A stretch of 64,000 bases of DNA from Pseudomonadales bacterium (GTDB taxonomy: Bacteria > Patescibacteriota > Microgenomatia > UBA1400 > PJMF01): contig JACKFW010000001.1 of assembly GCA_020632265.1 (NCBI GenBank), positions 75,785 to 139,784 on the forward strand, written 5' to 3'. Of this stretch, positions 3,604 to 58,849 are shown piece after piece; positions within the stretch are counted from its first letter, which is position 1, and every line of letters begins with the position of its first letter. The position numbers and the translations under genes are program-made. The notes below the pieces were generated by a model that ran no database searches, had not been told where the DNA came from, and worked only from the letters and a program-made list of their open reading frames with translations.

Positions 3604-5337
3604 CTATTTTACAGCAGATTTGTGGGAATGTGGAAAGGCAATGAGTGAAGTTAAAAATAAAATACTTATAAGTGAAATAAGATCTGAAACTTTTTGAACA
3701 TTGGTTTTTTGAAGAATTAGTTTAATCGTGTGATTGCCCTTATCAACTTGGACAAGAATTGTGCCGTCATCAGCAATTTCTTTTTGAGTAATTTCATCAT
3801 CCACCGCAACAGCCCAAACTGGCAAATCCCAGACAGCTAGATTTATTTTTTGAGGTTTACTGAGAGTTAATTCAACAACCTTTTTTACATTGCCATAGGA
3901 TGGTTTGGAAGTGTGATTGATGATAACAGCGCTTCCCGTAGCATTGAGAATTATTGGACCCGGTAAGACTGGTATTTTTGTAGCAGTGATAGGCATTAGT
4001 TCCCAAGAAATATCGGTAGGACCATTAAAAGATTTTAAGTCTTGGGTGTAATCTAGATCTTGTTTCCAATCTAGAGGCCAAGGTTTTGTGTAGTTTCTAA
4101 TGTTATAAATCATTACCAATAAAATTAATGAAATAAATATCATTCTTTGTTTGCTCGCTAGCATTTGTGAAACTAGACCGATGGCAAATGAACCTACCAA
4201 TGAAGTGGCAGCTAATAATCTCCATGGAAATTGAATTAGTTGTAGCGGATAAATTATTTGCCAGACCGATCTTGAGTGTTCCGTCATTAAGAAAATGAGG
4301 ATGCAAAAAGTAATGAGGAAAATTACTAAAAGTTTTGCTTCTTTTCTTTTCTTTTTTTGGAATATTAAAATAAGGGAAATTAAAAATGAAATCAAAATTG
4401 CTAATCCCACCTGAAAAGAAACGTCATCAGTTTTAAATGATGTAGAACTGCCGTAGCCCCATGCTGAATAGATGATTTGTTTTATTGTAGACCAATGGTC
4501 GGTGTAATCGATTAATACTTCGTTGCCTATTTTTACCCAGGATTTTTCAAGCATAAATGGGAAAAAATAAAATGCTGATAGTAAAACGCCAAAAATTGTA
4601 GAGGATATTAGGGCCAAGACTTTTTGTTTTGAAAAGTTTTTGCTAAGTAAATAGAGCGCGTACGCAGACAGTGGAATAAAGAAAATGATAATTGAGAGAA
4701 GGTGCGAAGTAATAATGCCAGCAATTCCCAGAGTCAAAGGGGCGCTATTTTTGCTGAATATAGGCTGATTTTGTGATTTTCTTGCACGATCTTTCTTTGA
4801 ATCTTTAGCAGTAAATAGCTGATAAAGTCCTAAACCGATTAAGGGTGCAAACAATAAGCCATATGAACCACCGGTTTGACCCGTAACGTAAAGGGTTAGA
4901 AACCTAAAAGGGACAATTCCATATGATATTGTTGCCAGTAGAGCTGGAACTGTATCCAGATGTTTTTTCATCCATAAATAAAAGGTTTGAAGTGAGCAAA
5001 AAATCACCAAAAACTGCATTAGTTTCCAACTCAAGGTAGTGCTAAATCCTAGGCTTTGAAAAAAAGCTGAAACGTAATATGGCAGTGGATAAAAAAACTG
5101 AAAAGTTAAGTAGCCATATGAATAGGCAATTTCTGGTGTCATGCGAACCGGAAATTGGCCGCTTTTTAGTTCTGTGAAAAAATGGAATGACCTGATGAGA
5201 TGGTAATCACCGTCATGAGTGCGATACATGCCAGGTTGAGAAAATGAGTTAAATGTAATGAAGATTGAAAGAAATAGGATAATCAAGAAAGAGAGAAATT
5301 TGGCAGAATTAGTGTTTAAAAGTTTATTAATGCACAC
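3604..5337 (-). CDS. Polytopic membrane protein, candidate GT-C glycosyltransferase (YfhO-like architecture); paralog of 56990..58849
   Basis: 577 aa. N-terminal motif 'HDGDYHLIRSFHFF..GQFPVRMTPEIAYSYGYLTFQFFYPLPYYV' aligns with 'HDYTQGARIVEM...GHFPVRWSQNFGYGYGMPLFEFYAPLPYYV' of ORF 56990..58849. About 9 TM helices, an extracytoplasmic C-terminal domain, and a final C-terminal TM anchor. Confidence 0.45.
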   Translation of the reverse strand: MCINKLLNTNSAKFLSFLIILFLSIFITFNSFSQPGMYRTHDGDYHLIRSFHFFTELKSGQFPVRMTPEIAYSYGYLTFQFFYPLPYYVSAFFQSLGFSTTLSWKLMQFLVIFCSLQTFYLWMKKHLDTVPALLATISYGIVPFRFLTLYVTGQTGGSYGLLFAPLIGLGLYQLFTAKDSKKDRARKSQNQPIFSKNSAPLTLGIAGIITSHLLSIIIFFIPLSAYALYLLSKNFSKQKVLALISSTIFGVLLSAFYFFPFMLEKSWVKIGNEVLIDYTDHWSTIKQIIYSAWGYGSSTSFKTDDVSFQVGLAILISFLISLILIFQKKKRKEAKLLVIFLITFCILIFLMTEHSRSVWQIIYPLQLIQFPWRLLAATSLVGSFAIGLVSQMLASKQRMIFISLILLVMIYNIRNYTKPWPLDWKQDLDYTQDLKSFNGPTDISWELMPITATKIPVLPGPIILNATGSAVIINHTSKPSYGNVKKVVELTLSKPQKINLAVWDLPVWAVAVDDEITQKEIADDGTILVQVDKGNHTIKLILQKTNVQKVSDLISLISILFLTSLIAFPHSHKSAVK

Positions 5338-5424
5338 GTTTAAAAGTATACACTGAATTAAATGTTATTTGATACTTTCAGTAGTATTATTGAATTTTGC
5401 TGGTTGCTATACTAAATTTTAATA

Positions 5425-6867
5425 ATGAAAAAACTTTGGAAAATATTTGCACTTTTATACATTATTTCTTTTTTAACAAGAATATTCTATTTTATTAATC
5501 ATGTTCCTTTTGCTCAAGACCAAATAAGAGATGTGTTGTTTATTAGAGAAATAATTTCTAATGGAAAATATTTTATTCCTTTTGGCCCTTCTACTAGTGT
5601 AGGTAACTTTTTTCTCCCACCGCTTTATTATTATTTTCAATTATTGTCCCATATTATATTTTTTAATAAATTTTATGCTATGGATCTATTTGTAATTTTA
5701 ATAGAATCACTAACTCCTTTAATGATTTTTTTTGTAACTCACAAATTGACGAAAAAAATTATTCCCTCTATTTTTTCTGGTTTGATCTATATTTTTTCCC
5801 CTATGGTTTTAATTGCAAGTTATGCTTGGAATCCAAATTTAATTCCATTTTTTAGCACTTTATTTTTAGTTAGTGTTTTAGTTTATTTTATAGATAAAAA
5901 AAAGCATTATTTAGGATCAGCATTGATTAGTTTTGTTGTATTAATTAATCTTCATTTTCAATGGTTTGTTTTGTTGCCTCTTTTGTTAATTTTACTTTTT
6001 CATAGCTTGAAAAATTTAAAAATTACATGGAAAATTTTAGTTTTCTCTTCAATTTTTTGCATTATGTTAATGTCTCCATATTTATTTGTAGAATTTCAAT
6101 CAAAATTTGGTAATTCAACAACAGCTATGGAATTTTTAAACAACAAGGAGTTAGTTTTTGAAAGAGTAAGAATACCTGCCTATATATCTGTTTTTTTCCC
6201 CAACTTCTTTCATAGATTTTTGTTTAATAATTTGTTTATAAATAATTGGGAATTTCAATATGAAAATTTTGGAGGAACTTTAATAATTAACTCAATATTA
6301 TTTTGGTTGATAATTCTGATTTATTTTAAGTACGCATTGAAAGATTTGAAAAAAAAGAATTCATTATATCCAGCAATTTATATTACAATTTTTACCTTTA
6401 TGAGCTTATTTTTAAGATTATACAAGGGAGATAAACCCGATTACTATTTATATGTTTTTATGCAATTCATGCCGATACTATTAGTTTATTCAATTTCAAA
6501 CATTGTTAGGAAGCACATTGTTAGAAATTCAATATTCATTTTTATTATTTCTTTAGAAATTATATCTTTTTTAAAGATTCCATCCTACAACGCTTATAAT
6601 TTATTTAAAGATATTGCTGATGAAGTTAAACAGTTAGATTCTAAAGTTTATATCGAGACAACTAACCAAGAGCTTGATTTGTCTTTAAAATATTTTTTAT
6701 TAGATGATTTAACTAGTAGTAGTGACATAAATACTGCAGATTACTACGTTTTAGTATGCTATACAAATGAAAACTGCTCTACAAAAAGTGGTAAAAATGA
6801 TGAGATGAGCAACAAAGTAGTTTCTAATAAATTATATTCTGCCGTATTTATTCCAATTAATAAATAA
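5425..6867 (+). CDS. GT-C fold membrane glycosyltransferase candidate ('AWNP'-motif family; paralogs at 38658..40136 and 43642..45438)
   Basis: 480 aa, >=10 TM. Shared motifs with its paralogs: N-terminal 'QDQIRD...GP...G', 'PPLYYYF', and 'SYAWNPNLIPFF' (compare 'SRWAWNPHFVIFW' and 'DRIAWNPNLSFLA'). Confidence 0.5.
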   Translation: MKKLWKIFALLYIISFLTRIFYFINHVPFAQDQIRDVLFIREIISNGKYFIPFGPSTSVGNFFLPPLYYYFQLLSHIIFFNKFYAMDLFVILIESLTPLMIFFVTHKLTKKIIPSIFSGLIYIFSPMVLIASYAWNPNLIPFFSTLFLVSVLVYFIDKKKHYLGSALISFVVLINLHFQWFVLLPLLLILLFHSLKNLKITWKILVFSSIFCIMLMSPYLFVEFQSKFGNSTTAMEFLNNKELVFERVRIPAYISVFFPNFFHRFLFNNLFINNWEFQYENFGGTLIINSILFWLIILIYFKYALKDLKKKNSLYPAIYITIFTFMSLFLRLYKGDKPDYYLYVFMQFMPILLVYSISNIVRKHIVRNSIFIFIISLEIISFLKIPSYNAYNLFKDIADEVKQLDSKVYIETTNQELDLSLKYFLLDDLTSSSDINTADYYVLVCYTNENCSTKSGKNDEMSNKVVSNKLYSAVFIPINK

Positions 6868-8056: not shown

Positions 8057-9331
8057 TTAAAGTTTTAATTTGTAAGTTTTCCTATATAAAATCATACTAG
8101 TAATCAGTGTAAACACTAACAGTACTACCCTACTGACTATCCTTGTCCAAGCAGCTGCTTCAAGTCCATATTCAGGTACAAAAATTGTATTTCCGATAAG
8201 TACGACAACGAGTTGTAGAATGCCACTAACTGAAAAATACCAGTTGGCTTTGAAACTAAAGAATAAAGCAATAAATGGTACTACTGCAACTGCGATGAAT
8301 GAAGATGCAGTTAACAGGTAAAGAATATTCAGGCCAGAAATATATTCCGAGCCTATGGTAAGTAATATTGATAATTTGCCAAAAGGTAAAAATAGGATAA
8401 ATCCAATTATTGAAAGAATTGCTATTGTGAAAGCTTTTTTAATAAAAGCATTAAGGTCTTCTTTGTTTTTATACTTCGCTACTCTTGGAAACAAAACATT
8501 TCCTAATGAATATGCAATTAAAGCAAACAACATGGCAATTCTAGAAACACCAGAATATAAACCCACTTCATAGGAACTTAGATATTTTTGCAAATATAGA
8601 ACATCAATATTATCGATGAAGCCAGTTGCGATTAAACCTACGGCAGAATGTTTAGCAAGCATTAAAATTTTACTTTGCAATTTAGAATTATGAATCTTAA
8701 AATTTATCCTAGTATCTTTTGTTACAAACTTTTTCCAAAAAAGTACTGGCACTAAAGGAGCGGCAATATACCAAGTAAAAGTAATAAGTGATGAGGTAAT
8801 TCCAGTTATTAAGAGCGCTAAAGCCCATACCAATTTAGTAATTGCCTGAATAATATTAATAAATATTGCTTGATTAAATCTTTGCAAAGATTGCAGGGTA
8901 TTTAATAAATGTTCGTAATAAACAGTCGAGATCCCAATTGTTAGAGCAACCAAAATAATTAAAGGATCAGAAAAATTGAAAACTTTACTGATTGCACCTG
9001 AAAAGAAAATTCCGATTAAGATGATAAAGAATGAAATCAATAATTTATATTTAAGAGTAAATGAATAGATAAAGTTCTTCTCTTCCGTTTTTTCATTCTC
9101 AGAGCCATATCTTAAAATGGCGTTATTGAATCCGAGATCGTTAATTTTAGTTAAAATCATCACAACTGCAAATCCCACTGAAAATTCACCAAATTTCTCT
9201 GGACCCAAAACTCTTGAATAAATCATTAAAGCAATGGCTGAGATACCAGTAGCAAAAGTACTGCCAAATAGGGTTTTGACTGATTGTAGAAGGCCGTCGG
9301 AGGCAAAGATGAGTTTTATTTTTTTATGCAT
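8057..9331 (-). CDS. wzx: Wzx-like oligosaccharide flippase (polysaccharide biosynthesis protein, MOP superfamily)
   Basis: 424 aa, ~12 TM. N-terminus 'TGISAIALMIYSRVLGPEKFGEFSVGFAVVMIL' matches the Polysacc_synt signature (R-x-L-G-P-E-x-F/Y-G). Confidence 0.7.
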   Translation of the reverse strand: MHKKIKLIFASDGLLQSVKTLFGSTFATGISAIALMIYSRVLGPEKFGEFSVGFAVVMILTKINDLGFNNAILRYGSENEKTEEKNFIYSFTLKYKLLISFFIILIGIFFSGAISKVFNFSDPLIILVALTIGISTVYYEHLLNTLQSLQRFNQAIFINIIQAITKLVWALALLITGITSSLITFTWYIAAPLVPVLFWKKFVTKDTRINFKIHNSKLQSKILMLAKHSAVGLIATGFIDNIDVLYLQKYLSSYEVGLYSGVSRIAMLFALIAYSLGNVLFPRVAKYKNKEDLNAFIKKAFTIAILSIIGFILFLPFGKLSILLTIGSEYISGLNILYLLTASSFIAVAVVPFIALFFSFKANWYFSVSGILQLVVVLIGNTIFVPEYGLEAAAWTRIVSRVVLLVFTLITSMILYRKTYKLKL

Positions 9332-9394: not shown

Positions 9395-10159
9395 ATGATA
9401 TATAAATATAAAGAGTTGTTATCTGAATTGACTAAAAGAGAAATTAAAGCTCGTTATAAGCAATCCGTATTGGGTTATGCCTGGGTTATTCTAAATCCAT
9501 TCTTCCAAATGTTGGTGATGGCGTTTGTTTTTTCAAAAATTTTAAGAATTACCGATTTGGGTGTGCCCTATGCCCTTTTTCTATATGTAGGACTACTTCC
9601 TTGGAATTTGTTTGCTGCATCTATTACTAGTAGCATGAACTCTCTTGTTGGAAATGGCTCACTACTAACCAAAATTTATTTCCCTCGAGAAATTTTTGTA
9701 ATTAGCACTATTCTAGCCAAGATAGTTGATTTTTTATTGGCATCAATAGTTTTGGTAATATTCTTTATATTTTTCCATCAGCAAGTCACGTTAAATATTT
9801 TCTGGATACTTCCAATATTCCTGATTCAGCAACTATTTACTTTTGGTCTGTCGTTGGTTTTGTCGGCCTTTAATTTGTTCTATAGAGATATTCAGTACCT
9901 CTTTGGTTTGATTTTACTCACGTGGATGTATATTACGCCAGTCATTTATCCTACTGAAATGTTTCCAGAGCAGTATCGATGGATTTTCAAATTAAATCCG
10001 ATGGCAATATTTATCAATGCCTATCGTCAAGTTATGTTGGGCGGCGGCTTGCCAAACTTTACAAGTTTGGGAATAGCTTTGGGACTTTCTCTAGTTATGG
10101 TCGTTATAGGGTATAAAATATTTAAAAATCTAGAAGGGATGTTTGCCGATGTCGTCTGA
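9395..10159 (+). CDS. wzm: ABC-2 type polysaccharide/teichoic-acid exporter permease (Wzm/TagG-like)
   Basis: 254 aa, 6 TM. N-terminus 'LTKREIKARYKQSVLGYAWVILNPFFQMLV' is the hallmark of Wzm/KpsM/TagG permeases. Its 3' end overlaps the downstream ATPase gene. Confidence 0.8.
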   Translation: MIYKYKELLSELTKREIKARYKQSVLGYAWVILNPFFQMLVMAFVFSKILRITDLGVPYALFLYVGLLPWNLFAASITSSMNSLVGNGSLLTKIYFPREIFVISTILAKIVDFLLASIVLVIFFIFFHQQVTLNIFWILPIFLIQQLFTFGLSLVLSAFNLFYRDIQYLFGLILLTWMYITPVIYPTEMFPEQYRWIFKLNPMAIFINAYRQVMLGGGLPNFTSLGIALGLSLVMVVIGYKIFKNLEGMFADVV

Positions 10160-14368: not shown

Positions 14369-14375
14369 TAAGTGA

Positions 14376-18159: not shown

Positions 18160-18176
18160 TTTGCTGAATCTTATAA

Positions 18177-23723: not shown

Positions 23724-24386
23724 TTAATTTAACTTTTTATAGACTAATAGACTTTGTGCTCCAAAAAATTTCCATAAAATAGGGATTTTAAGATACAATC
23801 TTATCATCCAATCTTTTTTTGGCAGTGTGCTTTTTGTTGTATATGGTAAAAATCTTACAATTTTTTCTACTGAATTAAAACCATTTATTTCAAATATTTC
23901 ATCCAAAGCTCTATCATCTATTGGAGTAATATGATCAAAAAACATCCAATAATCTTTAGAGCAAAATCTAATATTTGGTTGTAAGATGATAATTTTCCCA
24001 TTGTCTTTCAAAATTCTTTTAAATTCAATAATTGTTTTTTGAATTTCTTTTCTAGTTATATGTTCGAAAAAATTACTTACAAATATCTTATCAACTGATT
24101 TATTATTTAACGGTAAAGAATTTGATAATGCTTTATAAAATTTTACTCCCTTATTAAGAAATCTTTTTGAATCAGGATTAATATCAATTGCAATTTTATA
24201 TTTAACATTGATATTGTTAATAAATTCTCCATATCCACATGGTAAATCTAGCACAATATCTTTTTTATCAAAATATTTATAAAAAAAATCATTACATAAT
24301 ATTTTCCACATATTATTACGAAATTCTAAGCCAGTTTGGATAAATCTTTTTTCATACATTTTATCTAATTTTTGATATATTTTCAT
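23724..24386 (-). CDS. Class I SAM-dependent methyltransferase
   Basis: 220 aa. Motif I 'VLDLPCGYGEF'. Post-I acidic 'IAIDINPD'. Motif IV-like 'DKIFVSNFFEH'. Confidence 0.75.
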   Translation of the reverse strand: MKIYQKLDKMYEKRFIQTGLEFRNNMWKILCNDFFYKYFDKKDIVLDLPCGYGEFINNINVKYKIAIDINPDSKRFLNKGVKFYKALSNSLPLNNKSVDKIFVSNFFEHITRKEIQKTIIEFKRILKDNGKIIILQPNIRFCSKDYWMFFDHITPIDDRALDEIFEINGFNSVEKIVRFLPYTTKSTLPKKDWMIRLYLKIPILWKFFGAQSLLVYKKLN

Positions 24387-51422: not shown

Positions 51423-51503
51423 CCAAATTTTTTTTGATTTTTTGATTATTAATTCTTAACATATTTTTTTCATAGTTTCCCAGTGATAAATTGAGAACGT
51501 TCT

Positions 51504-52583
51504 CTAAAACATTTGCCAAACAATTTCTTCAAACTTACTTTCATCAAAATTTGTTGCGCGATCTAAAACCTTTGAAACATACTGATTATAATCAATATTA
51601 CCATTTATCACTTGCATAGTTTTGATAATACATTCGTCTTTTGTTTCCCACGATAGCTCGGATAATTGATTTCCCAATATTTCAACTTGGCCACCTTTAC
51701 CCAAAACAATCGGAATACATCCCGAAGCCATAGCTTCTAGAGTTGTGATTCCAAAATGCTCAACTTTTTCTGGTTCTTTTTTTTCATCAATGTCAAAACC
51801 GGTGGCGTGCCAATAAATTTTTGATTTTTCAAAGTACTCTATTAGTGTTTCACGTGAAACATCGTTATGAAACTCAATTGGTAATCCGCTCGCTGCCTCA
51901 ACTACTTCGTGAAAATATTCCTTATCTTCAATATTTCCAATAAATATTAACTTCCAGTCTTTAAGTTGATCTGGATACTGATCTATCATTTTTCTAAACA
52001 CTTCCACTAGAACATCTTGTCTTTTGCTATGCAATTGTTTAAAAAATCTACCAACATTTAAAATAATTTTTTCTTTATGTTTATTTGAATTAAATTCTCT
52101 TAAGTTGACTTTTGGATTATGCACAAAATCAATTGTGGTATGCCAGTTATTTTGAATAAATCTCTTAGTAAAAATGGAGTTTGTATTTTTAATATTCCAA
52201 TTTTTTAATTTTAGTCGATCAATTAAGGAATTTTTTCCTACTTTAAATGGAATCTGAATGTGTAAGTTATTTTTTTTAGCCAAACTAAAGAATAGACTCC
52301 CATCTGTTGCATAGTAAAAATAATCAAACTGCTTTGTCCACCACAATTTTTGAAAAAAATTTCCCTTAGGAATTGGAGAAGTAATAAAATTGATTTTTTC
52401 TAATGAATAATTTAAAAAACTCTCATAATCTTTTTTAATTTGAGCAAAGTTTTTGGACTCATTTTTATCAATAGAGATAAAAACATCATGTTTCGATGCA
52501 ACCAATGTTGCAATGTCAAAAAAATGCCTTTCTCCCCCACCAAAGTGCTTTGGAACGTAAGGGGAATAAAAACAAATCTTCAC
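51504..52583 (-). CDS. Family 4 (GT-B) glycosyltransferase
   Basis: 359 aa. 'MKICFYSPYVPKHFGGGERHFFDIA'. C-terminal 'HFGITTLEAMASGCIPIVLGKGGQVEIL' (E-x7-E block). Confidence 0.75.
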   Translation of the reverse strand: MKICFYSPYVPKHFGGGERHFFDIATLVASKHDVFISIDKNESKNFAQIKKDYESFLNYSLEKINFITSPIPKGNFFQKLWWTKQFDYFYYATDGSLFFSLAKKNNLHIQIPFKVGKNSLIDRLKLKNWNIKNTNSIFTKRFIQNNWHTTIDFVHNPKVNLREFNSNKHKEKIILNVGRFFKQLHSKRQDVLVEVFRKMIDQYPDQLKDWKLIFIGNIEDKEYFHEVVEAASGLPIEFHNDVSRETLIEYFEKSKIYWHATGFDIDEKKEPEKVEHFGITTLEAMASGCIPIVLGKGGQVEILGNQLSELSWETKDECIIKTMQVINGNIDYNQYVSKVLDRATNFDESKFEEIVWQMF

Positions 52584-53425
52584 TTTTTCCTTCCTAGATC
52601 ATGCTCGTTTTTCCAAAGAGCTGAGAGTTCTACTTCTTTCTCACTATATCTATCTTGAATTGTAGGATTTTGTTGAAATTCCCATACTTGAATGTAAACC
52701 AATATTCTATTAATTGCTTGAATAACAGCTTCAATTAAACCCTCCATCCCATCTCTATAACCCTTTTTCATAACTGCTCGTCTAAAAAATTCCATCCATC
52801 CTTTACGCACTAGAGTAAAAAATGTTACAGCTGGAATACTAGCTTTATATAATTCAATTGCTTCAACTGGAGTCCAGCTTGCAGTTTTATACAGACCACT
52901 TATAGTATCTCTATGAGTAAAATGAATCAGCTTAGTTTTTAAATCAATCAAATTACCTTTATAAATGGGAGTTTCATGAATATCGCCAGACCAACCCATC
53001 AAATTATCCTTTTTAAATACTCTCTCAAGAACGTCATCTTGCCAACCTCCCCATGATAATTTTTTACCAAAATATGTATTTTCTCGTTTCAATCTAAATA
53101 TTTGAGCGCTATTCGTTTCAATATTTACCATTATTTCTTTGGCCAAAATAGGACTGACTCTTTCATCAGAATCAACATAAATAACCCATTCAGATTTTGC
53201 TCTTTTTAATGCTTCCTCCCTTAATCTGGAAAATGATGAGTGTTTGAATGAAATTACTTTAGCACCATAGCTTTCGGCAATTTCTCTGGTGTCATCGATC
53301 GAACCATCATCAATTACAATTACTTCACTACACCATTTGAGTGAATTAATGCAATTGCCAATCATCTTCTCCTCATTTTTGGCAATAATTAAAGCTGATA
53401 TAGTTGGCTTGATCATATCTGTCAA
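52580..53425 (-). CDS. Family 2 glycosyltransferase (LPS-core-type GT2; paralog of 35963.. and 54552..)
   Basis: 281 aa. 'ISALIIAKNEEKMIGNCINSLKWCSEVIVIDDGSIDDTREIA', 'VIYVDSDERV', 'GGWQDDVLERVF'. Confidence 0.75.
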   Translation of the reverse strand: MTDMIKPTISALIIAKNEEKMIGNCINSLKWCSEVIVIDDGSIDDTREIAESYGAKVISFKHSSFSRLREEALKRAKSEWVIYVDSDERVSPILAKEIMVNIETNSAQIFRLKRENTYFGKKLSWGGWQDDVLERVFKKDNLMGWSGDIHETPIYKGNLIDLKTKLIHFTHRDTISGLYKTASWTPVEAIELYKASIPAVTFFTLVRKGWMEFFRRAVMKKGYRDGMEGLIEAVIQAINRILVYIQVWEFQQNPTIQDRYSEKEVELSALWKNEHDLGRKK

Positions 53426-53576
53426 ATTTATTATACCTTCAAAATGGTTAAAAAAGAAACTATGGAGATTTTAAAAAATCCTAAATTTTCACTAATCATT
53501 CTAAAATAATTTATGCAAAAAATTAGTTTACAATCTGACACATAAATTTATGAAAATATGAAAAAATTATATGAAA

Positions 53577-54509
53577 TTATAAAACTGGCTGTTTACCAAA
53601 TTGAGCAGTCAAAAAGTGAAAAATCCCAAGTCTCTGACGATTATTTCCAAACAGAATATAATTTAGACCCAATCTGAATCCAGCTAGTAGTTGATGCCAA
53701 CCACCATGCTTAAATATAAATATGAATCTATTTCTAGTTTGATAATATTCCTGGACTCCTGATCCAGATCCTCCACTCGAATTAGCATTTTTATGCCAAA
53801 CAATAGATTGAGGTACAAAATGTACTTCATATCCATTTTTTTGTGCTCTAACACTCAAATCAACATCTTCTAAATACAAAAAATATCTTTTATCAAGCGT
53901 ACCGACCTTCTCAAGTACTTCGCGTCTAATAAGCACACTACAACCAGTTGCAAAATCAGATTCCAATTGATTGTCGAAATGTCCTCGATCAACCTCATCA
54001 ACTCCACGATGAAAAGCCACTAAATGGTCCCAATCAATTGAACCACCCGCATACCAAAGTACGTTTCCAAGTTCTTGCTGTGAATACGAATCGACAAAAT
54101 ACTCGTGACCTTTGGCAAAATAAATTTTAGAGCTCATAAGACCTGCTTTTGGATATTTTTCTGCATGATCAATTAATGCTTTTAAAAATTTTGGATCAAC
54201 AATAGTGTCATTATTTAATAATAAAACAAAATCTGAATTATATTTCTCAACACAATAATGAATACCCATATTGTTCCCACCTGTATAACCTAAGTTTGAC
54301 TCGCTTCTAATTACCTCAATATCATTAGTTTTAAGTTTTTTTGGTAAAACAAATGCTTCTTTGGAGCCATTATCGACTATCAAGATCGAAAACTTGAAAC
54401 CACTAGATTTAACTTTCGACAAAGAATTCAGACATTCTAAGGTATCTGGTTGAGAATTATAATTAACAATTACGATTGATATATGTAACACGGTCTTATT
54501 ATACAACAT
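53577..54509 (-). CDS. Family 2 glycosyltransferase (rhamnosyl/galactosyl-transferase-like)
   Basis: 310 aa. 'ISIVIVNYNSQPDTLECLNSL...ILIVDNGSKE', 'VLLLNNDTIV', 'GCSVLIRREVLEKVGTLDKRYFLYLEDVDLSVRAQKNGY'. Confidence 0.85.
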   Translation of the reverse strand: MLYNKTVLHISIVIVNYNSQPDTLECLNSLSKVKSSGFKFSILIVDNGSKEAFVLPKKLKTNDIEVIRSESNLGYTGGNNMGIHYCVEKYNSDFVLLLNNDTIVDPKFLKALIDHAEKYPKAGLMSSKIYFAKGHEYFVDSYSQQELGNVLWYAGGSIDWDHLVAFHRGVDEVDRGHFDNQLESDFATGCSVLIRREVLEKVGTLDKRYFLYLEDVDLSVRAQKNGYEVHFVPQSIVWHKNANSSGGSGSGVQEYYQTRNRFIFIFKHGGWHQLLAGFRLGLNYILFGNNRQRLGIFHFLTAQFGKQPVL

Positions 54510-54551
54510 TAGAAAAATTTAAATATTTCTTCTAAAAAATTATAGCTTTCT

Positions 54552-55502
54552 TCAAAAATACAGTTTTCTTCTAATTTTCCAAAAAAGTTTAATAAAGCCA
54601 GTATTATTTTCCACCTTCCAGTCAGCAATCCAGTAAGCTAACTCTTTTTTAAATTGAGAAATTTCCTCAATTAACTCCTCTTCTTGAGCTTTGTCAGTTT
54701 CTGGAAATCCATTTAAATCCCAAACCTTCATAGCAACAGAAGCCTCAGAAATTGATTGAAGCAAAGACAAGCATAAACCATGACTACCGTCATTAATACC
54801 TCTCTGAGCAAATAGTCTGGATAGTAACTCACTATAAAATTTTTTAAATATAAATTTTGAGTCAATTTGAATATCTTTTGAATCATGAACAAACTCTTTA
54901 GCTTGAATACTACTATAATGATTCATTCTGGTTATATATTGATTAACATGTTGATAATTGTGATGAATAATTGCAATGTCCTTTTGAGCTGGTAATTCTT
55001 TCACTTCACCACTAGTGATAGGTATGGAATGAATATCATCGGACCATTCAACATGACCTTTTCTAAATAATCTCAAAACATGGTCGGGCCACCAACCAGT
55101 TTTTTCAATCCATTTGCCAAATATTAAATTTTGTCTTGGAATGTAATAACAGTCAGCAACTGCTTTTCCAATTTTGTTACCGGATTTTTCCCCACTTTCA
55201 GGGATTTCAGAAATTATATCTAAAATTGTTGTTGCGAGTTTTTTTGGAACTTCCTCGTCTGCATCTAAAATAAATACCCAATCTCCTTTTGCTTTTGAAA
55301 TTGCAAAGTTCCTAGCGGGTTCTACATAACCAACATCATCGTGGGTATATACTTTCTTGGTAAATTTATTTGCAATTAACACCGTATTATCGGTGCTTTT
55401 CATATCTACAACTACAATTTCATCTGCAAACTTTACTGATTGTAATGCTGCTTCAAGCGAAGTTTCTGCATTTTTTGTATTTATCACCACAGAAAGCTTC
55501 AT
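54552..55502 (-). CDS. Family 2 glycosyltransferase (LPS-core-type GT2 paralog)
   Basis: 316 aa. 'MKLSVVINTKNAETSLEAALQSVKFADEIVVVDMKSTDNTVLIA', 'VFILDADEEV', 'TGWWPDHVLRLF'. Confidence 0.75.
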   Translation of the reverse strand: MKLSVVINTKNAETSLEAALQSVKFADEIVVVDMKSTDNTVLIANKFTKKVYTHDDVGYVEPARNFAISKAKGDWVFILDADEEVPKKLATTILDIISEIPESGEKSGNKIGKAVADCYYIPRQNLIFGKWIEKTGWWPDHVLRLFRKGHVEWSDDIHSIPITSGEVKELPAQKDIAIIHHNYQHVNQYITRMNHYSSIQAKEFVHDSKDIQIDSKFIFKKFYSELLSRLFAQRGINDGSHGLCLSLLQSISEASVAMKVWDLNGFPETDKAQEEELIEEISQFKKELAYWIADWKVENNTGFIKLFWKIRRKLYF

Positions 55503-56956
55503 TTGAGACTCCTAACTTCTTGTAAAATTTTATTCCTACCTAATAATAATAAAGTAATTAAATAAACAAAACTAGTCAAGATTAAACCAAATCCAAAATT
55601 CACAAAACCCAATTTCCAGTAATTCATCCCCATCATTCCTACAAGCGACATCATTAAAGCTGCTACAAACTGCCTCCAAACCTGGTCAATAAACTCAATT
55701 GGAATAATTTTCTTCACAAGATAAACTGATAATACTGATGTAAATGAAATTAACAATGCGGCAATTGAAACACCATTAAATCCAAAGTAGTAAATTCCAA
55801 TTGGAGTCAAGATCCAAGTAAGTATGGTCCAAAAGATCATTAACTTTAGAGTTAAATTAATTTTACCAATGGCATTAAGAGTATTTGTTAATGGGGTTGA
55901 AATTGCTCCCCAGGCAATACTCAAACTAAATAAAATTAAACTAAATGCAGCAGGTTCCCACTTATTCCATTTTGGCACTAAACTGATAAATGGAAAAATA
56001 AAAACACTCATTCCTGCTAAAATTGGAAAGATTGCTAAGGTAATAAAAAATAATGATTTTTCAATTGCTTTTTTTAATGCTTCTGTATGCCCTTGCAACC
56101 TTGAAAATGCTGGAAAAGTTATCGCTAGCATATTTTGTACAGTAAGATTGTATGGATACATTGACCAATTTTTTGCCCACTGAATATAACCAAAGTCTCT
56201 TAGAGGTAAAATTAATCCTAAAAATAAGTAAAATAATTGATCTTTAATTCTAGCTAGAAAGTCATTGATTTGAAATTTTACTCCAAACCCAAGTAAAACC
56301 TTGAGGGAATTTTTATCTAGAGCTATGCCAAAAGACCATGGCTGTAAAATTGTCATGACTGCGACACCAACTATCGATCTAGCTACAATAGCATAAGCAT
56401 AAGCTATAGATCCAGAACCAGATAAAGCCATATATATTAGTATCCCGTGAAAAACAATTTGTTCAAAAATTTGTGGCAAAATTAATTTTGAAAAATCCAA
56501 TTTTCTTTCTAAAATAACTGATGGAATAGTTTTAAAAGTTGCAAGTGGGAACGAAATGCCCAGAGCTAATAAAATCCATTTTCCGGTTTCACCAGTTTTT
56601 GCTTGCACAAATCCAGTCAAAAGAATTATCAAAATTATTCCAAAAATAACCCAACTTAAAATTTGCTGAACTGTAAAAGCACTTCGGTAGTCATTCGCAG
56701 TAGGTTCAGAATTCTTTTGAATTAATGAGGCTGCCAAACCTACATCGGAAAAGAAAACTAGAATTCCAATAATTTGGATAACAAAACCATATATACCGAA
56801 ATCTTCAGGTGAAAAATATGAACTAAGGATGAAAATTGATACTAAACCAATTCCTTGAAGTATTAATGTTCTAATAAAATATGAGATCGCTCCTGTGACA
56901 GATTTTTTCTTAACATCTTGAAGATATTCAACTCTCTTAAGTTCTTTGGCGTTCAT
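55499..56956 (-). CDS. wzx: Wzx-like oligosaccharide flippase (MOP superfamily), second copy
   Basis: 485 aa, 12-14 TM. 'ISYFIRTLILQGIGLVSIFILSSYFSPEDFGIYGFV' is the Polysacc_synt N-terminal signature. Confidence 0.75.
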   Translation of the reverse strand: MNAKELKRVEYLQDVKKKSVTGAISYFIRTLILQGIGLVSIFILSSYFSPEDFGIYGFVIQIIGILVFFSDVGLAASLIQKNSEPTANDYRSAFTVQQILSWVIFGIILIILLTGFVQAKTGETGKWILLALGISFPLATFKTIPSVILERKLDFSKLILPQIFEQIVFHGILIYMALSGSGSIAYAYAIVARSIVGVAVMTILQPWSFGIALDKNSLKVLLGFGVKFQINDFLARIKDQLFYLFLGLILPLRDFGYIQWAKNWSMYPYNLTVQNMLAITFPAFSRLQGHTEALKKAIEKSLFFITLAIFPILAGMSVFIFPFISLVPKWNKWEPAAFSLILFSLSIAWGAISTPLTNTLNAIGKINLTLKLMIFWTILTWILTPIGIYYFGFNGVSIAALLISFTSVLSVYLVKKIIPIEFIDQVWRQFVAALMMSLVGMMGMNYWKLGFVNFGFGLILTSFVYLITLLLLGRNKILQEVRSLK

Positions 56957-56989
56957 AAGATCTATCTTCCTTATTATTAATATTCTGGA

Positions 56990-58849
56990 TTAATAATCTT
57001 TCTTAACAATTAAGCTCTCTAATTTTTTCTTTAATAATTTCCTATAATAGCAAATTAAGGTTAACAAAAAAATTATAAGTCCAAACAATGACAAGCGATC
57101 AGAAATGATTCTAATTTTGCTTCCCTTAAATTCTAAACCCACTAAATGATTGCCCGCCTCAACAGGCACAATAATAGTTCCCAATTCTCCAACCTGGTGA
57201 GGAATCACATTACCATCAATTTTAGCTGTCCATCCAGGAAAATCAGCTAGAGCAAATTCAACAAGAGTTAGTTCTTGTGTTTCAACTTCAACCAATTTTT
57301 TTTGTGTCATATCTGCAATGATGCTGAATTTAAAATTACAATTATCTTTAGGTATTACTAATTCATTGCCAGTAAGTGAAGATGAATCGACAGACTCAAA
57401 TTCACAAAGAAACATTTTTCCAACAGGAACATAAGTAAACATAGATTTTTCAGACAAAGGTTCTGATTTCGCTATCGCCATTTGAATTGGTATAAAATCT
57501 GGTAAAGTTTTACTCATTTCTGCTCTAATTCTTTGTGAATCATCATAATATCTTAGGTTGGTCTCTGATAAAAAACCAGCTGGCTGAAAAAATTTCCAGT
57601 TTGAAAAAATAATCACTAAAAGAATTGCTCCAGCAAAAAAGAAACGGTGGAATTTTCCTTTCAAAAATTTTGAATTATATCCAATTACGATTGCTAAAAA
57701 TATTATTGAAGCTGACAACCATCGCCACGGAAATTGAATATATGATAAAAAGCTTAATTGATCCCAAATAAATTTTGATTTATAAACTGACATAAACACA
57801 GAAAACAAAAGCAATCCAAGAAATAAGAAATACAAATTAAATTTCTGAGTTAAAAAAAGATATATTTTTTTAGGATGAATTTTCTTTAAATTACCAGTGT
57901 ATGAATAGAATGATTTAATTAGCAGAATCCCAGAAATCGCTAAACCCATTAATTGTCCAGTCCCTAAATAAAATGAAATGTCATCATTTGGACCAAATGA
58001 AGATCCGCCGTATTGCCAATTATCCTCAAAAAATTGTTTGATGGAAAGAAAATGCAAATTGTAATCAAAATAGGTTGCTAGAACAGTTTGATCAATTCTA
58101 GTAAAACTCTTTTCAGCCAAGGCAGGAATTATATAAAAAGTAGAAATTAAAATGGAAAGTAAATAAGTTCCAGTTAACACCAATAATCTGCTGAACAACA
58201 ATTTAAACCAATTTTTCTCTCCATAAAAACTTATCAGCAAATAAACTGCACTAAAAATAATACTCAAAGGTATAAATATTAGCGATGTTAAATTATGGCT
58301 CAAGAGTAAGGTTATCAATGAAAATAGTAAGGTAATCCAACCATTTTTTTTATTTTTAACGACTAAAATTATTCCATAAAGAATAAATGGTAATACCATG
58401 ACACCCCAAGATTCGCTTACAGCACCTCTTACAAATAAATTTAAAGCTCGATATGGTGCCAAAGTAATTGCGGCTGCAACCACAACTCCCCAAGAACTTC
58501 CAAATAATTCTTTACCTAACTTATAGCCTCCAATCACACTTATTAATGCGGAAATCAAAAACAATGCCTTAATAGAATTAATCAAGGAAAAGCCTAGTAA
58601 GTAAATCAAGCCACCAACATAATAGGGAAGCGGTGCATAAAATTCAAATAACGGCATTCCATAACCATAACCAAAATTTTGACTCCACCTAACTGGAAAA
58701 TGACCATCACTAAGAGCATTTTTCATCTCAACGATTCTAGCTCCCTGAGTATAATCATGAACATAAAAAAAATCATTTCTAAAGAGTGCCCAAGAAGAAC
58801 TCCAAAAAATAATAAGAAGTAATAAGAATATAGTGATTTTCTTAATCAT
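56990..58849 (-). CDS. Polytopic membrane protein, candidate GT-C (YfhO-like architecture); paralog of 3604..5337
   Basis: 619 aa. See the shared N-terminal block under 3604..5337. ~13 TM, a C-terminal extracytoplasmic domain and a terminal TM anchor ('LSLFGLIIFLLTLICYY'). Confidence 0.45.
   Translation of the reverse strand: MIKKITIFLLLLIIFWSSSWALFRNDFFYVHDYTQGARIVEMKNALSDGHFPVRWSQNFGYGYGMPLFEFYAPLPYYVGGLIYLLGFSLINSIKALFLISALISVIGGYKLGKELFGSSWGVVVAAAITLAPYRALNLFVRGAVSESWGVMVLPFILYGIILVVKNKKNGWITLLFSLITLLLSHNLTSLIFIPLSIIFSAVYLLISFYGEKNWFKLLFSRLLVLTGTYLLSILISTFYIIPALAEKSFTRIDQTVLATYFDYNLHFLSIKQFFEDNWQYGGSSFGPNDDISFYLGTGQLMGLAISGILLIKSFYSYTGNLKKIHPKKIYLFLTQKFNLYFLFLGLLLFSVFMSVYKSKFIWDQLSFLSYIQFPWRWLSASIIFLAIVIGYNSKFLKGKFHRFFFAGAILLVIIFSNWKFFQPAGFLSETNLRYYDDSQRIRAEMSKTLPDFIPIQMAIAKSEPLSEKSMFTYVPVGKMFLCEFESVDSSSLTGNELVIPKDNCNFKFSIIADMTQKKLVEVETQELTLVEFALADFPGWTAKIDGNVIPHQVGELGTIIVPVEAGNHLVGLEFKGSKIRIISDRLSLFGLIIFLLTLICYYRKLLKKKLESLIVKKDY

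What the first reader, a model, noticed from the sequence alone, without database searches (positions are those of the whole stretch)
3604..58849. Glycosylation supercluster of ~18 GT-C membrane glycosyltransferases in at least five paralogous families
About 55 kb is occupied almost exclusively by glycan-assembly genes. At least 18 encode large polytopic GT-C-type proteins. These comprise ArnT/PMT-like with a DE dyad (36839, 40256, 41955, 47457; degenerate 29628, 49193), an 'AWNP'-motif family (5425, 38658, 43642), YfhO-like proteins with a terminal TM anchor (3604, 19264, 56990), and PIG-V-like (33606), DUF2079-like (32156) and unassigned (22146, 45493) members. Three DPM1/GtrB-like GT2 synthases (24383, 28234, 28967) could supply the polyprenyl-phosphate-sugar donors that GT-C enzymes use, which is established for the ArnC/ArnT, GtrB/GtrV and DPM1/PMT systems. 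Ordinary O-antigen or capsule loci carry 0-2 GT-C genes. This density implies many distinct extracytoplasmic glycosyl transfers, for example protein O-glycosylation of S-layer or pilin, or lipid glycosylation. It is characteristic of poorly studied low-GC/CPR lineages, where none of these enzymes has a known acceptor.
Basis: partly seen in the sequence, partly recalled or inferred. Interest (0 to 1): 0.75.

Follow-up and report, generated by a model that had tools for sequence, protein, structure and literature searches.

The report
Sixteen GT-C glycosyltransferases in one locus
A tiny-genome Patescibacteria (CPR) bacterium fills about 55 kb entirely with surface-sugar genes, including 16 membrane enzymes that add sugars outside the cell; this kind of machinery is known, but the number here is unusual, two of the enzyme families match no Pfam family, and their targets are unknown.

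Summary
All 43 ORFs between 3604 and 58849 belong to glycan-assembly families. Fifteen are supported as GT-C-type and one (33606) only weakly. None is a Wzy polymerase or a transporter.

The three small GT2 enzymes are closest to polyprenyl-phosphate sugar synthases such as DPMS, AglJ and PpgS. In other organisms, two of them occur fused to the very GT-C families they sit beside here. This ties donor synthase to transferase.

The context is an ABC exporter, two Wzx-like flippases, an LCP ligase and rmlBCD. It points to a wall-linked glycopolymer that is extended or decorated outside the membrane.

Arrays of 2-8 GT-C genes flank a conserved rml-LCP core in six more distant Patescibacteria loci. 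The phenomenon is therefore lineage-wide, extreme here, and uncharacterised.

The parts
3604..5337 (-). GT-C, family C (PTPS_related/YfhO-like), 577 aa, C-terminal TM anchor
   Evidence: 28% identical to o56990m, E 6e-46. Family C HMM E 1e-80. Homologues carry PF10131, PF09586 or PF13231. HD motif after TM1.
5425..6867 (+). GT-C, family B (AWNP motif), 480 aa
   Evidence: PMT_2 E 1.4e-4, below the gathering score. BLASTP to 43642 5e-8. AWNP at residue 134. Family B versus family A hhalign 98.6%.
8057..9331 (-). Wzx-type flippase (Polysacc_synt)
   Evidence: Pfam E 1.2e-20.
9395..10880 (+). ABC-2 glycopolymer exporter pair (Wzm/TagG-like permease and Wzt/TagH-like ATPase)
   Evidence: Pfam ABC2_membrane and ABC_tran. 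NCBIfam TagH E 3e-67 and Wzm E 1e-20.
19264..22125 (-). YfhO-like GT-C, 953 aa: 11 predicted TM helices (10 N-terminal, one C-terminal anchor) and a 418-aa outside domain
   Evidence: Pfam YfhO E 2.9e-8 on residues 859-936 only. Family C HMM hits 865-951. N-terminal part versus family B hhalign 76.8%. Topology.
22146..23714 (-). GT-C, ArnT/GT39-like family F, 522 aa
   Evidence: Homologues carry PMT_2/PMT and are named GT39/ArnT family. Some are fused to a GT2 or a methyltransferase. Family A versus this family hhalign 97.4%. Invariant R46, Q47 and E80.
23724..24386 (-). SAM methyltransferase between the GT-C 22146 and the GT2 24383
   Evidence: Pfam Methyltransf_11. Homologue P0247 of 22146 carries fused methyltransferase domains.
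24383..25126 (-). Small soluble GT2, polyprenyl-phosphate sugar synthase-like; partner of 22146
   Evidence: Best NCBIfam hits are PgfS 3e-22 and AglJ 2.5e-18. No TM helix. The GT2 domains of the 22146-like fusions P0262 and P0270 match it best, at 1e-19 and 2.5e-28.
28234..28935 (-). Small soluble GT2, the most DPMS-like of the three
   Evidence: PDB 5MLZ dolichol-P-mannose synthase E 7e-21 over residues 8-217, then ArnC and the GT2 sll0501. AglJ 8e-40 and PpgS 7e-20.
28967..29638 (-). Small soluble GT2; partner of 29628, overlapping it by 11 nt
   Evidence: AglJ 2e-16 and PpgS 8e-14. It is the best match (34-46% identity, E 1e-45 to 1e-63) to the N-terminal GT2 of six GT2::29628-like fusion proteins.
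29628..31232 (-). GT-C, family D (no Pfam), 534 aa
   Evidence: 363 cluster representatives. Invariant P48, D51 and R337. hhalign 95.9% to the ArnT-like family and 97.8% to family A. The only PDB profile hit is ALG12 at E 0.02.
32156..33601 (-). DUF2079 membrane protein, 481 aa (GT-C-like)
   Evidence: Pfam DUF2079 E 4e-37. hhalign 62-68% to families A and D as a single sequence. Placement of DUF2079 in the GT-C clan is from memory and was not tested.
33606..34871 (-). Probable GT-C (GT87/PIG-V-like), 421 aa; weakest assignment
   Evidence: GT87 E 2.3e-3, below the cut-off. Nine TM helices and a 71-aa loop after TM1 containing FDGVHYLTIA. The single-sequence AF2 model was unusable, pLDDT 48.
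36839..38671 (-). GT-C, family A (PMT_2-like, DE dyad), 610 aa
   Evidence: BLASTP to 40256 1e-14 and to 41955 8e-12. DE at residue 39. 61% identical orthologue in L005.
38658..40136 (-). GT-C, family B (AWNP and DE), 492 aa
   Evidence: BLASTP to 5425 7e-6 and to 43642 4e-4. AWNP at residue 147. 69% identical orthologue in L005.
40256..41977 (+). GT-C, family A, 573 aa
   Evidence: Pfam PMT E 2e-11 and PMT_2 E 6e-8, both above the cut-offs. NCBI name 'phospholipid carrier-dependent glycosyltransferase'.
41955..43577 (+). GT-C, family A, 540 aa
   Evidence: PMT_2 E 4.5e-8. 30% identical to 40256.
43642..45438 (-). GT-C, family B, 598 aa, with a 221-aa C-terminal outside domain
   Evidence: PMT_2 E 2.7e-5, just below the cut-off. 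AWNP at residue 137. D38 invariant in the family.
45493..47460 (-). GT-C, family E (no Pfam; named sources all CPR), 655 aa
47457..49076 (-). GT-C, family A, 539 aa; the family A member also kept in a distant relative
   Evidence: PMT_2 E 5.6e-6, above the cut-off. 59% identical orthologue in the distant locus L009.
49193..50353 (+). GT-C, short member of family D, 386 aa
   Evidence: Family D HMM E 9.7e-12. hhalign 96.2% to family D and 95.6% to family B. 71-75% identical orthologues in L005-L008.
50382..55502 (-). Five cytoplasmic glycosyltransferases (GT2, GT1, GT2, GT2, GT2): conserved backbone-assembly block
   Evidence: Pfam. The same block appears in L006, L009, L012 and L016.
55499..56956 (-). 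Wzx-type flippase (Polysacc_synt_3)
   Evidence: Pfam E 9e-44. Always next to the family C gene in relatives.
56990..58849 (-). GT-C, family C (PTPS_related/YfhO-like), 619 aa; conserved core member
   Evidence: 938 homologues, many carrying PF10131/PF09586/PF13231. H31-D32 invariant. Family A versus family C hhalign 96.1%.
58989..60131 (+). LCP (LytR-CpsA-Psr) glycopolymer-to-peptidoglycan ligase
   Evidence: Pfam E 1e-28. NCBIfam LCP domain 84 bits, cut-off 62.
60415..63000 (+). rmlB, rmlC and rmlD (dTDP-rhamnose synthesis)
   Evidence: Pfam GDP_Man_Dehyd 4e-81, dTDP_sugar_isom 6e-29 and RmlD_sub_bind 2e-42.
13142..19232 (+). GT4, GT2, GT4, epimerase and acyltransferase-3: a second cytoplasmic assembly and modification block
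   Evidence: Pfam.
99..3596 (-).
   Evidence: Wzy_C E 1e-11. hhalign 99.8% to family D over residues 553-897.

Best explanation
The locus is the cell-envelope glycan factory of a Patescibacteria (CPR) bacterium. It consists of a conserved core plus a large expansion of extracytoplasmic glycosyltransferases.

Proposed route:
1. Cytoplasmic GT2 and GT4 enzymes, fed by RmlBCD and four epimerase/dehydratases, build lipid-linked glycan on a polyprenyl carrier.
2. A Wzm/Wzt-type ABC exporter and/or two Wzx-type flippases move it outside.
3. In parallel, three small soluble GT2 enzymes (24383, 28234, 28967) load single sugars onto polyprenyl phosphate.
4. After flipping, sixteen GT-C enzymes of at least seven sequence families each transfer such a sugar to a particular position of the exported polymer. 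They do this with a conserved acidic residue in the outside loop that follows TM1 (TM4 in 45493).
5. The LCP enzyme then links the product to peptidoglycan.

Two donor/transferase pairs are specified: 24383 with 22146, and 28967 with 29628.

Shown here: family and fold assignments, topology, conserved acids, gene fusions and synteny. Inferred: the lipid-linked donors, the order of steps, the wall polymer as acceptor, and the sugars involved.
For: - Topology and catalysis. The proteins have 8-14 predicted TM helices. K+R density is 0.12-0.50 per residue in the N-terminal tails and 0.05-0.10 in the 39-100-aa loop after TM1. Near-invariant acids are D41-E42 (family A), D38 (B), H31-D32 (C), D51 (D), D137 (E) and E80 (F).
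- Donors. 28234 aligns to Pyrococcus dolichol-P-mannose synthase at 7e-21, then to ArnC and the GT2 sll0501. The best NCBIfam hits of all three are polyprenyl-P sugar synthases (AglJ, PpgS, PgfS, ArnC), unlike the seven other GT2s tested.
- Coupling. Six 29628-like proteins carry an N-terminal GT2 that best matches 28967 at 34-46% identity. Two 22146-like proteins carry a GT2 that best matches 24383.
- Pathway context. TagH/Wzt 3e-67, LCP above its cut-off, and RmlBCD.
- Precedent. The streptococcal SCC and GAC pathways use the same parts: an ABC exporter, GT-A Und-P-sugar synthase plus GT-C pairs, and LCP (PMC11754754; PMC11127046).
- Selection. The order of 38658 to 56990 is kept at 50-81% identity in other species, while paralogues are only 23-30% identical. 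They are therefore old and diverged, not recent copies.
Against: - No initiating phosphoglycosyltransferase, RmlA or GtrA-type flippase lies in the window.
- The three small GT2s lack the membrane anchor found in GtrB, ArnC and Pyrococcus DPMS. None reaches an NCBIfam equivalog cut-off.
- Nothing identifies the acceptor. PMT-family hits would also fit protein O-glycosylation.
- Only one GT-C fold was verified by structure. 33606 is weakly supported, and the GT-C status of DUF2079 rests on recalled clan membership.
- Three donor synthases for sixteen transferases means that many GT-C enzymes share donors or use donors made elsewhere.
Confidence: 0.55

Rival explanations
1. The GT-C array is mainly a protein O-glycosylation system. 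PMT/GT39-like enzymes transfer sugars from polyprenyl-P-sugars to Ser/Thr of S-layer proteins, pili or other surface proteins. Precedents are actinobacterial Pmt and the streptococcal GtrB/GT-C systems that glycosylate Ser/Thr-rich regions.
For: 40256, 41955 and 47457 pass the Pfam PMT/PMT_2 cut-offs, and five proteins have the DE dyad typical of PMTs. The best NCBIfam hit of 24383 is PgfS, named there only 'glycosyltransferase PgfS'; its role in a streptococcal protein glycosylation system is from my own knowledge. The abstract of PMC12041528 reports glycosylation of Ser/Thr-rich disordered regions of membrane-associated streptococcal proteins, and the paper mentions GtrB and GT-C (abstract and term counts only; the enzyme mechanism is from my own knowledge).
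Against: No window protein hits the PMT_4TMC domain, whereas a relative in L010 does. PMT_2 also covers ArnT-type lipid and polysaccharide transferases. No candidate glycoprotein gene lies in the locus. The conserved neighbours are polysaccharide parts: ABC exporter, Wzx, LCP and rml.
Confidence: 0.2
2. The GT-C enzymes polymerise, rather than decorate, a membrane-anchored lipoglycan or wall glycan outside the cell. The model is mycobacterial arabinan and mannan, where about a dozen GT-C enzymes (Emb, Aft, Mpt, PimE) each make one linkage from decaprenyl-P-sugars.
For: Many non-redundant, anciently diverged GT-C families sit in one locus. AftA, AftB, AftD and PimE are among the structural matches to 45493. 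PpgS is the second-best family for 28234 and 28967; that it is a TM-less donor synthase working with a GT-C in mycobacteria is from my own knowledge. Multiple DPM-synthase copies have been noted in other CPR genomes (PMC4736985 and PMC6031116). There are only three donor synthases for sixteen transferases.
Against: Fourteen cytoplasmic GT2/GT4 enzymes and an ABC exporter suggest that much of the polymer is built inside. No phosphatidylinositol-mannoside or lipid-anchor genes were seen. Processivity cannot be read from sequence.
Confidence: 0.15
3. The array is a surface-diversification toolkit comparable to phage-borne gtr serotype-conversion cassettes. Individual GT-C genes are gained and lost to vary the surface glycan seen by phages or by the host cell of an episymbiont. 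This concerns why there are so many genes and is compatible with any of the acceptor models.
For: L007, a close relative, lacks the 40256/41955/43642 block and has a family C-like gene there instead. GT-C number around the same conserved core ranges from 2 to 8 per roughly 22 kb in other Patescibacteria.
Against: Eight GT-C genes keep order and 55-75% identity between species. There are no mobile-element genes in the window. There are no phase-variation tracts beyond three 9-nt A/T runs.
Confidence: 0.25

Closest known systems
Streptococcal rhamnopolysaccharide loci (Group A carbohydrate gac; S. mutans SCC scc)
   Same: They share rml genes, cytoplasmic GT2/GT4 backbone synthesis, an ABC-2 exporter, a Wzx-family protein, GT2 Und-P-sugar synthases paired with specific GT-C transferases (SccN/SccM, SccP/SccQ), a sulfatase-superfamily gene and LCP attachment (PMC11754754). 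GacI/GacL and GacK details are from my own knowledge.
   Different: Those loci have 1-2 GT-C genes and this one has 16. The synthases there are membrane-anchored and these are not. The sulfatase-family protein here has no TM domain and sits next to a CysD/CysH-like protein. The organism is a CPR bacterium, not a Firmicute.
Three-component Gtr-type periplasmic glycosylation (GtrA/GtrB/GtrV; ArnC/ArnT; CsbB-GtcA-YfhO)
   Same: Both use a GT2 lipid-P-sugar synthase plus a GT-C transferase acting outside the membrane (PMC11127046; PMC8035078 listed).
   Different: No GtrA/GtcA-type small flippase is present. The synthases lack TM helices. In relatives the synthase and the GT-C are fused into one polypeptide. 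I found no description of such fusions in the held library.
Mycobacterial arabinogalactan/LAM GT-C set (EmbA-C, AftA-D, PimE, MptA-C) and the PpgS/Rv3779 pair
   Same: Both have many GT-C enzymes of different families, each presumably making one linkage outside the cell. AftA, AftB, AftD, EmbA and PimE are structural matches of 45493. The small GT2s match the PpgS family model. That PpgS is TM-less, like the small GT2s here, is from my own knowledge.
   Different: Sequence identity is 12% or less. The mycobacterial genes are scattered over a 4.4-Mb genome (my own knowledge), whereas here they sit in one locus of a 1.08-Mb genome. No Emb-type carbohydrate-binding modules were detected.
GT39 protein O-mannosyltransferases (PMT)
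   Same: There are Pfam PMT/PMT_2 hits and a DE dyad in the loop after TM1 for family A.
   Different: There is no PMT_4TMC or MIR domain. The best structural and profile relatives are spread over ArnT, ALG, Aft and OST families alike.

Membership tests
GT-C glycosyltransferase superfamily | Polytopic membrane protein with about 7-13 TM helices | tested here: met
   Hydropathy peak-picking gives 8-14 TM helices for all 16 candidates.
GT-C glycosyltransferase superfamily | Extracytoplasmic loop right after TM1 that carries a conserved catalytic acidic residue | tested here: met
   A 39-100-aa loop follows TM1, and the positive-inside rule places it outside. Conserved D/E residues are present in families A-F. 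In 45493 the loop follows TM4. In the 22146 family the invariant acid is E80. For 33606, 32156 and 19264 no family alignment was available.
GT-C glycosyltransferase superfamily | GT-C fold shown by structure comparison | tested here: inconclusive
GT-C glycosyltransferase superfamily | Uses a polyprenyl-phosphate-linked or diphosphate-linked sugar donor | not testable with these tools
   Indirect only: adjacency to, and fusion with, DPMS-like GT2 domains.
GT39 / PMT protein O-mannosyltransferase | Pfam PMT or PMT_2 above the gathering score | tested here: inconclusive
   Met for 40256, 41955 and 47457. Below the cut-off for 5425 and 43642. No hit for 36839 and 38658.
GT39 / PMT protein O-mannosyltransferase | C-terminal PMT_4TMC domain | tested here: not met
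   No window protein hits PF16192 even at E up to 10. A relative in L010 does.
STT3/PglB/AglB oligosaccharyltransferase | WWDxG motif | tested here: not met
   The motif is absent from all 16 proteins, although OSTs are among the structural matches of 45493.
YfhO / PTPS_related | Pfam YfhO or PTPS_related above the gathering score over the membrane domain | tested here: inconclusive
   19264 passes, but only through its last 78 residues. 3604 and 56990 are sub-threshold themselves, but their homologues carry PF10131/PF09586.
YfhO / PTPS_related | Large outside domain followed by a C-terminal TM anchor | tested here: met
   C-terminal TM at residues 550-568 of 577, 929-947 of 953 and 581-599 of 619.
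Polyprenyl-phosphate glycosyltransferase (DPM1/GtrB/ArnC/AglJ/PpgS type GT2) | Catalytic domain closest to characterised polyprenyl-P sugar synthases | tested here: met
   28234 versus 5MLZ DPMS 7e-21, then ArnC and the GT2 sll0501. The top NCBIfam hits of all three are AglJ, PpgS, PgfS and ArnC, unlike the other seven GT2s tested.
Polyprenyl-phosphate glycosyltransferase (DPM1/GtrB/ArnC/AglJ/PpgS type GT2) | Score above a curated equivalog cut-off | tested here: not met
   The best score is 137 bits against the AglJ cut-off of 325. The sugar specificity is therefore unknown.
Polyprenyl-phosphate glycosyltransferase (DPM1/GtrB/ArnC/AglJ/PpgS type GT2) | C-terminal TM helices or a GtrA_DPMS_TM domain | tested here: not met
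   No TM helix in 24383, 28234 or 28967. A relative in L016 has GT2 plus GtrA_DPMS_TM. TM-less members exist (human DPM1, PpgS; my own knowledge), so this does not exclude the activity.
Gtr-type three-component glycosylation system | Dedicated small GtrA/GtcA-family flippase | tested here: not met
   No GtrA Pfam hit was found. The only unassigned small ORF encodes 77 aa with one TM helix.
ABC-transporter-dependent, LCP-attached wall glycopolymer pathway | Wzm/Wzt (TagG/TagH) exporter and LCP ligase | tested here: met
   TagH 3e-67, Wzm 1e-20, and the LCP domain at 84 bits against a cut-off of 62.
ABC-transporter-dependent, LCP-attached wall glycopolymer pathway | Initiating phosphoglycosyltransferase (WecA/TagO or WbaP type) in the locus | tested here: not met
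   No PF00953 or PF02397 hit among the 49 ORFs. It may be encoded elsewhere in the genome.

The most novel reading that the evidence does not exclude
These CPR bacteria build most of their wall glycan outside the membrane with an assembly line of GT-C enzymes. This includes two families with no Pfam model and distant from every solved GT-C structure (the 45493 family and the 29628/49193 family). The donor synthase and the transferase form one functional unit, fused in relatives and split but translationally coupled here. That unit also moves the polyprenyl-P-sugar across the membrane itself, which would explain why no GtrA-type flippase is present.
Probability: 0.15. Interest if true: 0.8.

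Novelty: new variant of a known kind. Interest (0 to 1): 0.55.

Why it matters
CPR/Patescibacteria are a large share of bacterial diversity. Most are uncultivated, and many are thought to live attached to other cells, so their surface chemistry probably sets their host range and phage range. Almost nothing is known about that chemistry.

- This locus spends 2.5% of a 1.08-Mb genome on GT-C enzymes alone, which implies an elaborate and strongly selected surface glycan.
- It supplies two GT-C families with no Pfam model, which would probably become new glycosyltransferase families if characterised.
- It supplies two donor/transferase pairs specified by natural gene fusions (24383 with 22146; 28967 with 29628). 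These are ready-made targets for heterologous reconstitution.
- The fused GT2::GT-C proteins and the missing flippase also bear on an open question noted for streptococci (PMC11754754): how lipid-P-sugars cross the membrane.

Tried and rejected
- NCBIfam gave nothing for the ten unassigned membrane proteins, nor for o99m and DUF2079.
- Single-sequence PDB searches of 45493, 56990, 40256 and 33606 gave only chance hits.
- Profile-versus-PDB searches for family C (A3) and the 22146 family (A4) found nothing significant. AftD at E 2.7 was the only suggestive line. For family D there was a single marginal hit, ALG12 at E 0.02.
- AlphaFold on 33606 without an alignment failed (pLDDT 48).
- The afdb50 structure library was not available.
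- Pfam at E up to 10 added nothing for 29628, 38658, 49193 or 22146.
- Literature searches on Patescibacteria plus GT-C, CPR plus protein glycosylation, DUF2079 and GT2/GT-C fusions returned no relevant paper.
- Rejected: Wzy polymerases or transporters as the identity of the membrane proteins.
- Rejected: STT3/PglB-type oligosaccharyltransferases, because there is no WWDxG motif.
- Rejected: recent tandem amplification, because paralogues are 23-30% identical while orthologues are 55-75% identical.
- Rejected: phase variation by homopolymer tracts.
- Rejected: the NCBI organism label 'Pseudomonadales', because the nearest genome is labelled Candidatus Paceibacterota and the CPR-named homologues dominate the famC and 45493-family hit lists.

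Full report
**What is there.** The window has about 30% G+C. ORFs of at least 150 aa cover 96.7% of it. I scanned all 49 such ORFs against Pfam. Between 3604 and 58849 there are 43 ORFs, and every one belongs to a glycan-assembly class:
- 16 large polytopic membrane proteins, which are the GT-C candidates
- 10 GT2 and 4 GT4/GT1 enzymes
- 4 NAD-dependent epimerase/dehydratases
- 2 Wzx-type flippases
- a Wzm/Wzt (TagG/TagH-like) ABC exporter pair
- 2 acyltransferase-3 proteins and 1 methyltransferase
- 1 PAPS-reductase/CysD-like protein and 1 sulfatase-family protein

An LCP ligase, rmlB, rmlC, rmlD and then trmD follow on the right. A 17th (PMT_2, 516 aa) lies just beyond the left edge. The 16 genes total 26,988 nt, which is 49% of the region and 2.5% of the genome.

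**Source.** Identical proteins occur on a 1,082,363-bp NCBI contig with locus tags H6772_00450 to H6772_00590, labelled 'Pseudomonadales bacterium', and on Logan assemblies. That label is almost certainly wrong. The nearest species-representative genome is a 'Candidatus Paceibacterota' MAG, which NCBI places in phylum Minisyncoccota, i.e. Patescibacteria/CPR. Named homologues come from Pacebacteria, Levybacteria, Curtissbacteria, Woesebacteria, Beckwithbacteria and 'Patescibacteria group'.

**Are the membrane proteins GT-C?** By direct Pfam evidence:
- 40256, 41955 and 47457 pass PMT/PMT_2.
- 19264 passes YfhO, through its C-terminal 78 residues only.
- 32156 is DUF2079 (E 4e-37).
- 5425 and 43642 fall just under the PMT_2 cut-off.
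- 33606 has only a weak GT87 hit (E 2e-3).
- Seven have nothing, and NCBIfam adds nothing.

I resolved the seven unassigned proteins as follows.
- 36839 joins 40256 and 41955 by BLASTP (1e-14 and 8e-12). 38658 joins 5425 and 43642.
- 3604 and 56990 are paralogues (E 6e-46). 56990 has more than 900 homologues, many carrying PTPS_related, YfhO or PMT_2 domains.
- Homologues of 22146 carry PMT_2/PMT and are named GT39/ArnT family.
- 29628 belongs to a family of 363 cluster representatives without Pfam coverage. Its profile aligns to the ArnT-like family at 95.9% and to family A at 97.8%. Its only PDB profile hit is the GT-C enzyme ALG12, at E 0.02.
- 49193 hits the 29628-family HMM at 9.7e-12.

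In the same hhalign runs the two Wzx flippases and an acyltransferase score 2.7% or less against every GT-C profile. No candidate has a Wzy domain. Only the neighbouring 1165-aa o99m does.

Verdict: 15 of 16 are supported and 33606 is probable only. Its single-sequence model was unusable.

**Families.**
- A: 36839, 40256, 41955 and 47457, with a DE dyad.
- B: 5425, 38658 and 43642. The AWNP motif occurs in exactly these three.
- C: 3604 and 56990, with 19264 sharing their C-terminal module.
- D: 29628 and 49193, plus part of o99m.
- E: 45493.
- F: 22146.
- Singles: DUF2079 (32156) and the GT87-like 33606.

'At least five families' therefore holds, but 29628 and 49193 are not degenerate members of family A.

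**Topology and catalytic residues.** All candidates have 8-14 predicted TM helices. In 15 of them TM1 is followed by a 39-100-aa loop. K+R density is 0.12-0.50 per residue in the short N-terminal tails and 0.05-0.10 in that loop, so the loop lies outside. Each family with an alignment keeps an acidic residue there:
- D41-E42 in A, D38 in B and H31-D32 in C
- D51 in D (motif NLEPYPD) and D137 in E (HDSxWH, after four TM helices)
- E80 in F

This matches the GT-C description quoted in PMC11127046. No protein has the WWDxG motif of oligosaccharyltransferases.

**Donor synthases.** Of the ten GT2s, seven others were scanned against NCBIfam and only 24383, 28234 and 28967 resemble polyprenyl-phosphate glycosyltransferases.
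- 28234 aligns over its whole length to Pyrococcus dolichol-P-mannose synthase (5MLZ, 7e-21), then to ArnC and the GT2 sll0501.
- Their best NCBIfam hits are AglJ, PpgS, PgfS, ArnC and halobacterial dolichyl-P-hexose transferase, all below the equivalog cut-offs.
- They have no TM helix, unlike GtrB and ArnC. Human DPM1 and PpgS also lack one (my own knowledge).

The strongest new evidence is Rosetta-stone fusions. All six 29628-like proteins of 729-780 aa that were scanned carry an N-terminal GT2 domain. The five of these re-examined by BLASTP with a 28967-like domain, plus a seventh long homologue P0386, best match 28967 at 34-46% identity, E 1e-45 to 1e-63. In P0375 the GT2 best matches 27431 instead. 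Gene 28967 overlaps 29628 by 11 nt in the window. Two 22146-like proteins carry a GT2 that best matches 24383, and another carries methyltransferase domains like the gene lying between 22146 and 24383. An N-terminal cytoplasmic GT2 followed by an N-in TM1 is topologically consistent.

**Pathway context and conservation.** The ABC ATPase matches TagH/Wzt (3e-67), and the LCP domain passes its curated cut-off. The parts list mirrors the streptococcal rhamnopolysaccharide pathways. There the polymer is made inside and exported by an ABC transporter. It is then glucosylated outside by GT-A/GT-C pairs (SccN/SccM, SccP/SccQ) and attached by LCP, and the flippase is still unknown (PMC11754754).

Missing from the window are RmlA, an initiating phosphoglycosyltransferase and any GtrA-type flippase.

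Closer relatives (L005-L008) keep the order of their genes at 50-81% identity: 38658 to 56990 in L006 and 36839 to 49193 in L005. One of them, L007, has replaced 40256/41955/43642 with a family C-like gene. Six more distant Patescibacteria loci were examined. Four of them (L009, L012, L015, L016) share the core rmlD-rmlB, a small 66-79-aa protein, LCP, a family C GT-C and Wzx, and several also share the GT2/GT1 block. The six loci carry 2 to 8 GT-C genes per roughly 22 kb. In the window the local maximum is 11 in 21 kb.

GT-C arrays are therefore a recurrent Patescibacteria trait. This locus is at the high end rather than unique. I found no paper describing them. Two CPR genome papers merely note multiple dolichol-P-mannosyltransferase copies.

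**Mechanism and alternatives.** I consider it most likely (about 0.55) that the locus makes a peptidoglycan-linked, rhamnose-containing glycopolymer. Its backbone would be assembled in the cytoplasm and exported, then extended or branched outside by the GT-C enzymes using polyprenyl-P-monosaccharides made by the three small GT2s.

That the enzymes are GT-C transferases using lipid-linked donors I rate at about 0.85. The acceptor is the weak point. Protein O-glycosylation (0.2) and an extracytoplasmically polymerised lipoglycan of the mycobacterial type (0.15) remain open. Gene-content differences between relatives suggest the array also serves surface diversification.

**Novelty.** The kind of system is known. 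New here are:
- the scale (16-17 GT-C genes in one locus of a 1.08-Mb genome)
- two GT-C families without Pfam models, one supported by a high-confidence predicted structure
- natural GT2::GT-C fusions that assign donor/transferase pairs
- the absence of both synthase membrane anchors and a dedicated flippase

I rate this a new variant of a known kind, with interest 0.55.

Noticed in passing
window 99-3596 (-): This 1165-aa protein combines an O-antigen-ligase-like Wzy_C domain (residues 250-456) with pieces of GT-C family D. Those pieces are the TM1 and outside-loop segment (motif NFDTTPE in place of NLEPYPD) and the C-terminal soluble domain with its CxxxC motif. The middle TM helices of family D are missing (hhalign 99.8%, residues 553-897). 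It suggests a shared acceptor-binding module swapped between two kinds of lipid-linked-sugar transferases.
   Followed up: partly
whole window (NCBI proteins MCB9812836 to MCB9812872, locus tags H6772_00450 to H6772_00590): The public record labels this 1.08-Mb genome 'Pseudomonadales bacterium'.
   Followed up: partly
window 60143-60376 (+): A 77-aa ORF with one TM helix lies between the LCP gene and rmlB. A 66-79-aa gene sits in the same position in four distant Patescibacteria loci: L009, L012, L015 and L016. It is a conserved but unannotated small membrane protein of the core locus.
   Followed up: partly
window 10890-13140 (+): A CysD/CysH-like PAPS-reductase-family protein (225 aa) is followed directly by an arylsulfatase-like protein with no TM helix (522 aa), just downstream of the ABC exporter. 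This might indicate sulfation or phospho-modification of the glycan. It differs from the membrane-anchored GacH/SccH-type sulfatase-family transferases.
   Followed up: no
L007 3883-5559 versus window 40256-45438: A close relative from the same metagenome series as L006 lacks the 40256/41955/43642 block and carries a family C-like gene there instead. The GT-C complement therefore changes between near neighbours.
   Followed up: partly
L013 13573-23498 (left of the window): The glycan region continues beyond the window: a 109-aa gene, an epimerase, a PMT_2 GT-C (516 aa) and two GT4 genes. It is then interrupted by ruvCAB and resumes with a hexapeptide transferase, a GT2 and a second Wzy_C protein.
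   Followed up: no
L011 6597-10004; proteins P0224-P0239: The 45493 family also exists in forms of about 1135 aa with a long N-terminal extension, next to a normal-length paralogue. P0190 joins a 24383-like GT2 to the C-terminal half of a 45493-like protein, though it comes from a short contig.
   Followed up: no
L016 975-2144: In another Patescibacteria genome the donor synthase next to a PMT_2 gene is a 389-aa GT2 fused to a GtrA_DPMS_TM domain. That is the anchored form missing from the window's three small GT2s.
   Followed up: no
window 12000-28000: G+C drops to 0.26-0.28 here, against 0.30-0.33 in the rest of the window. This may mark a more recently acquired or faster-evolving part of the locus.
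   Followed up: no
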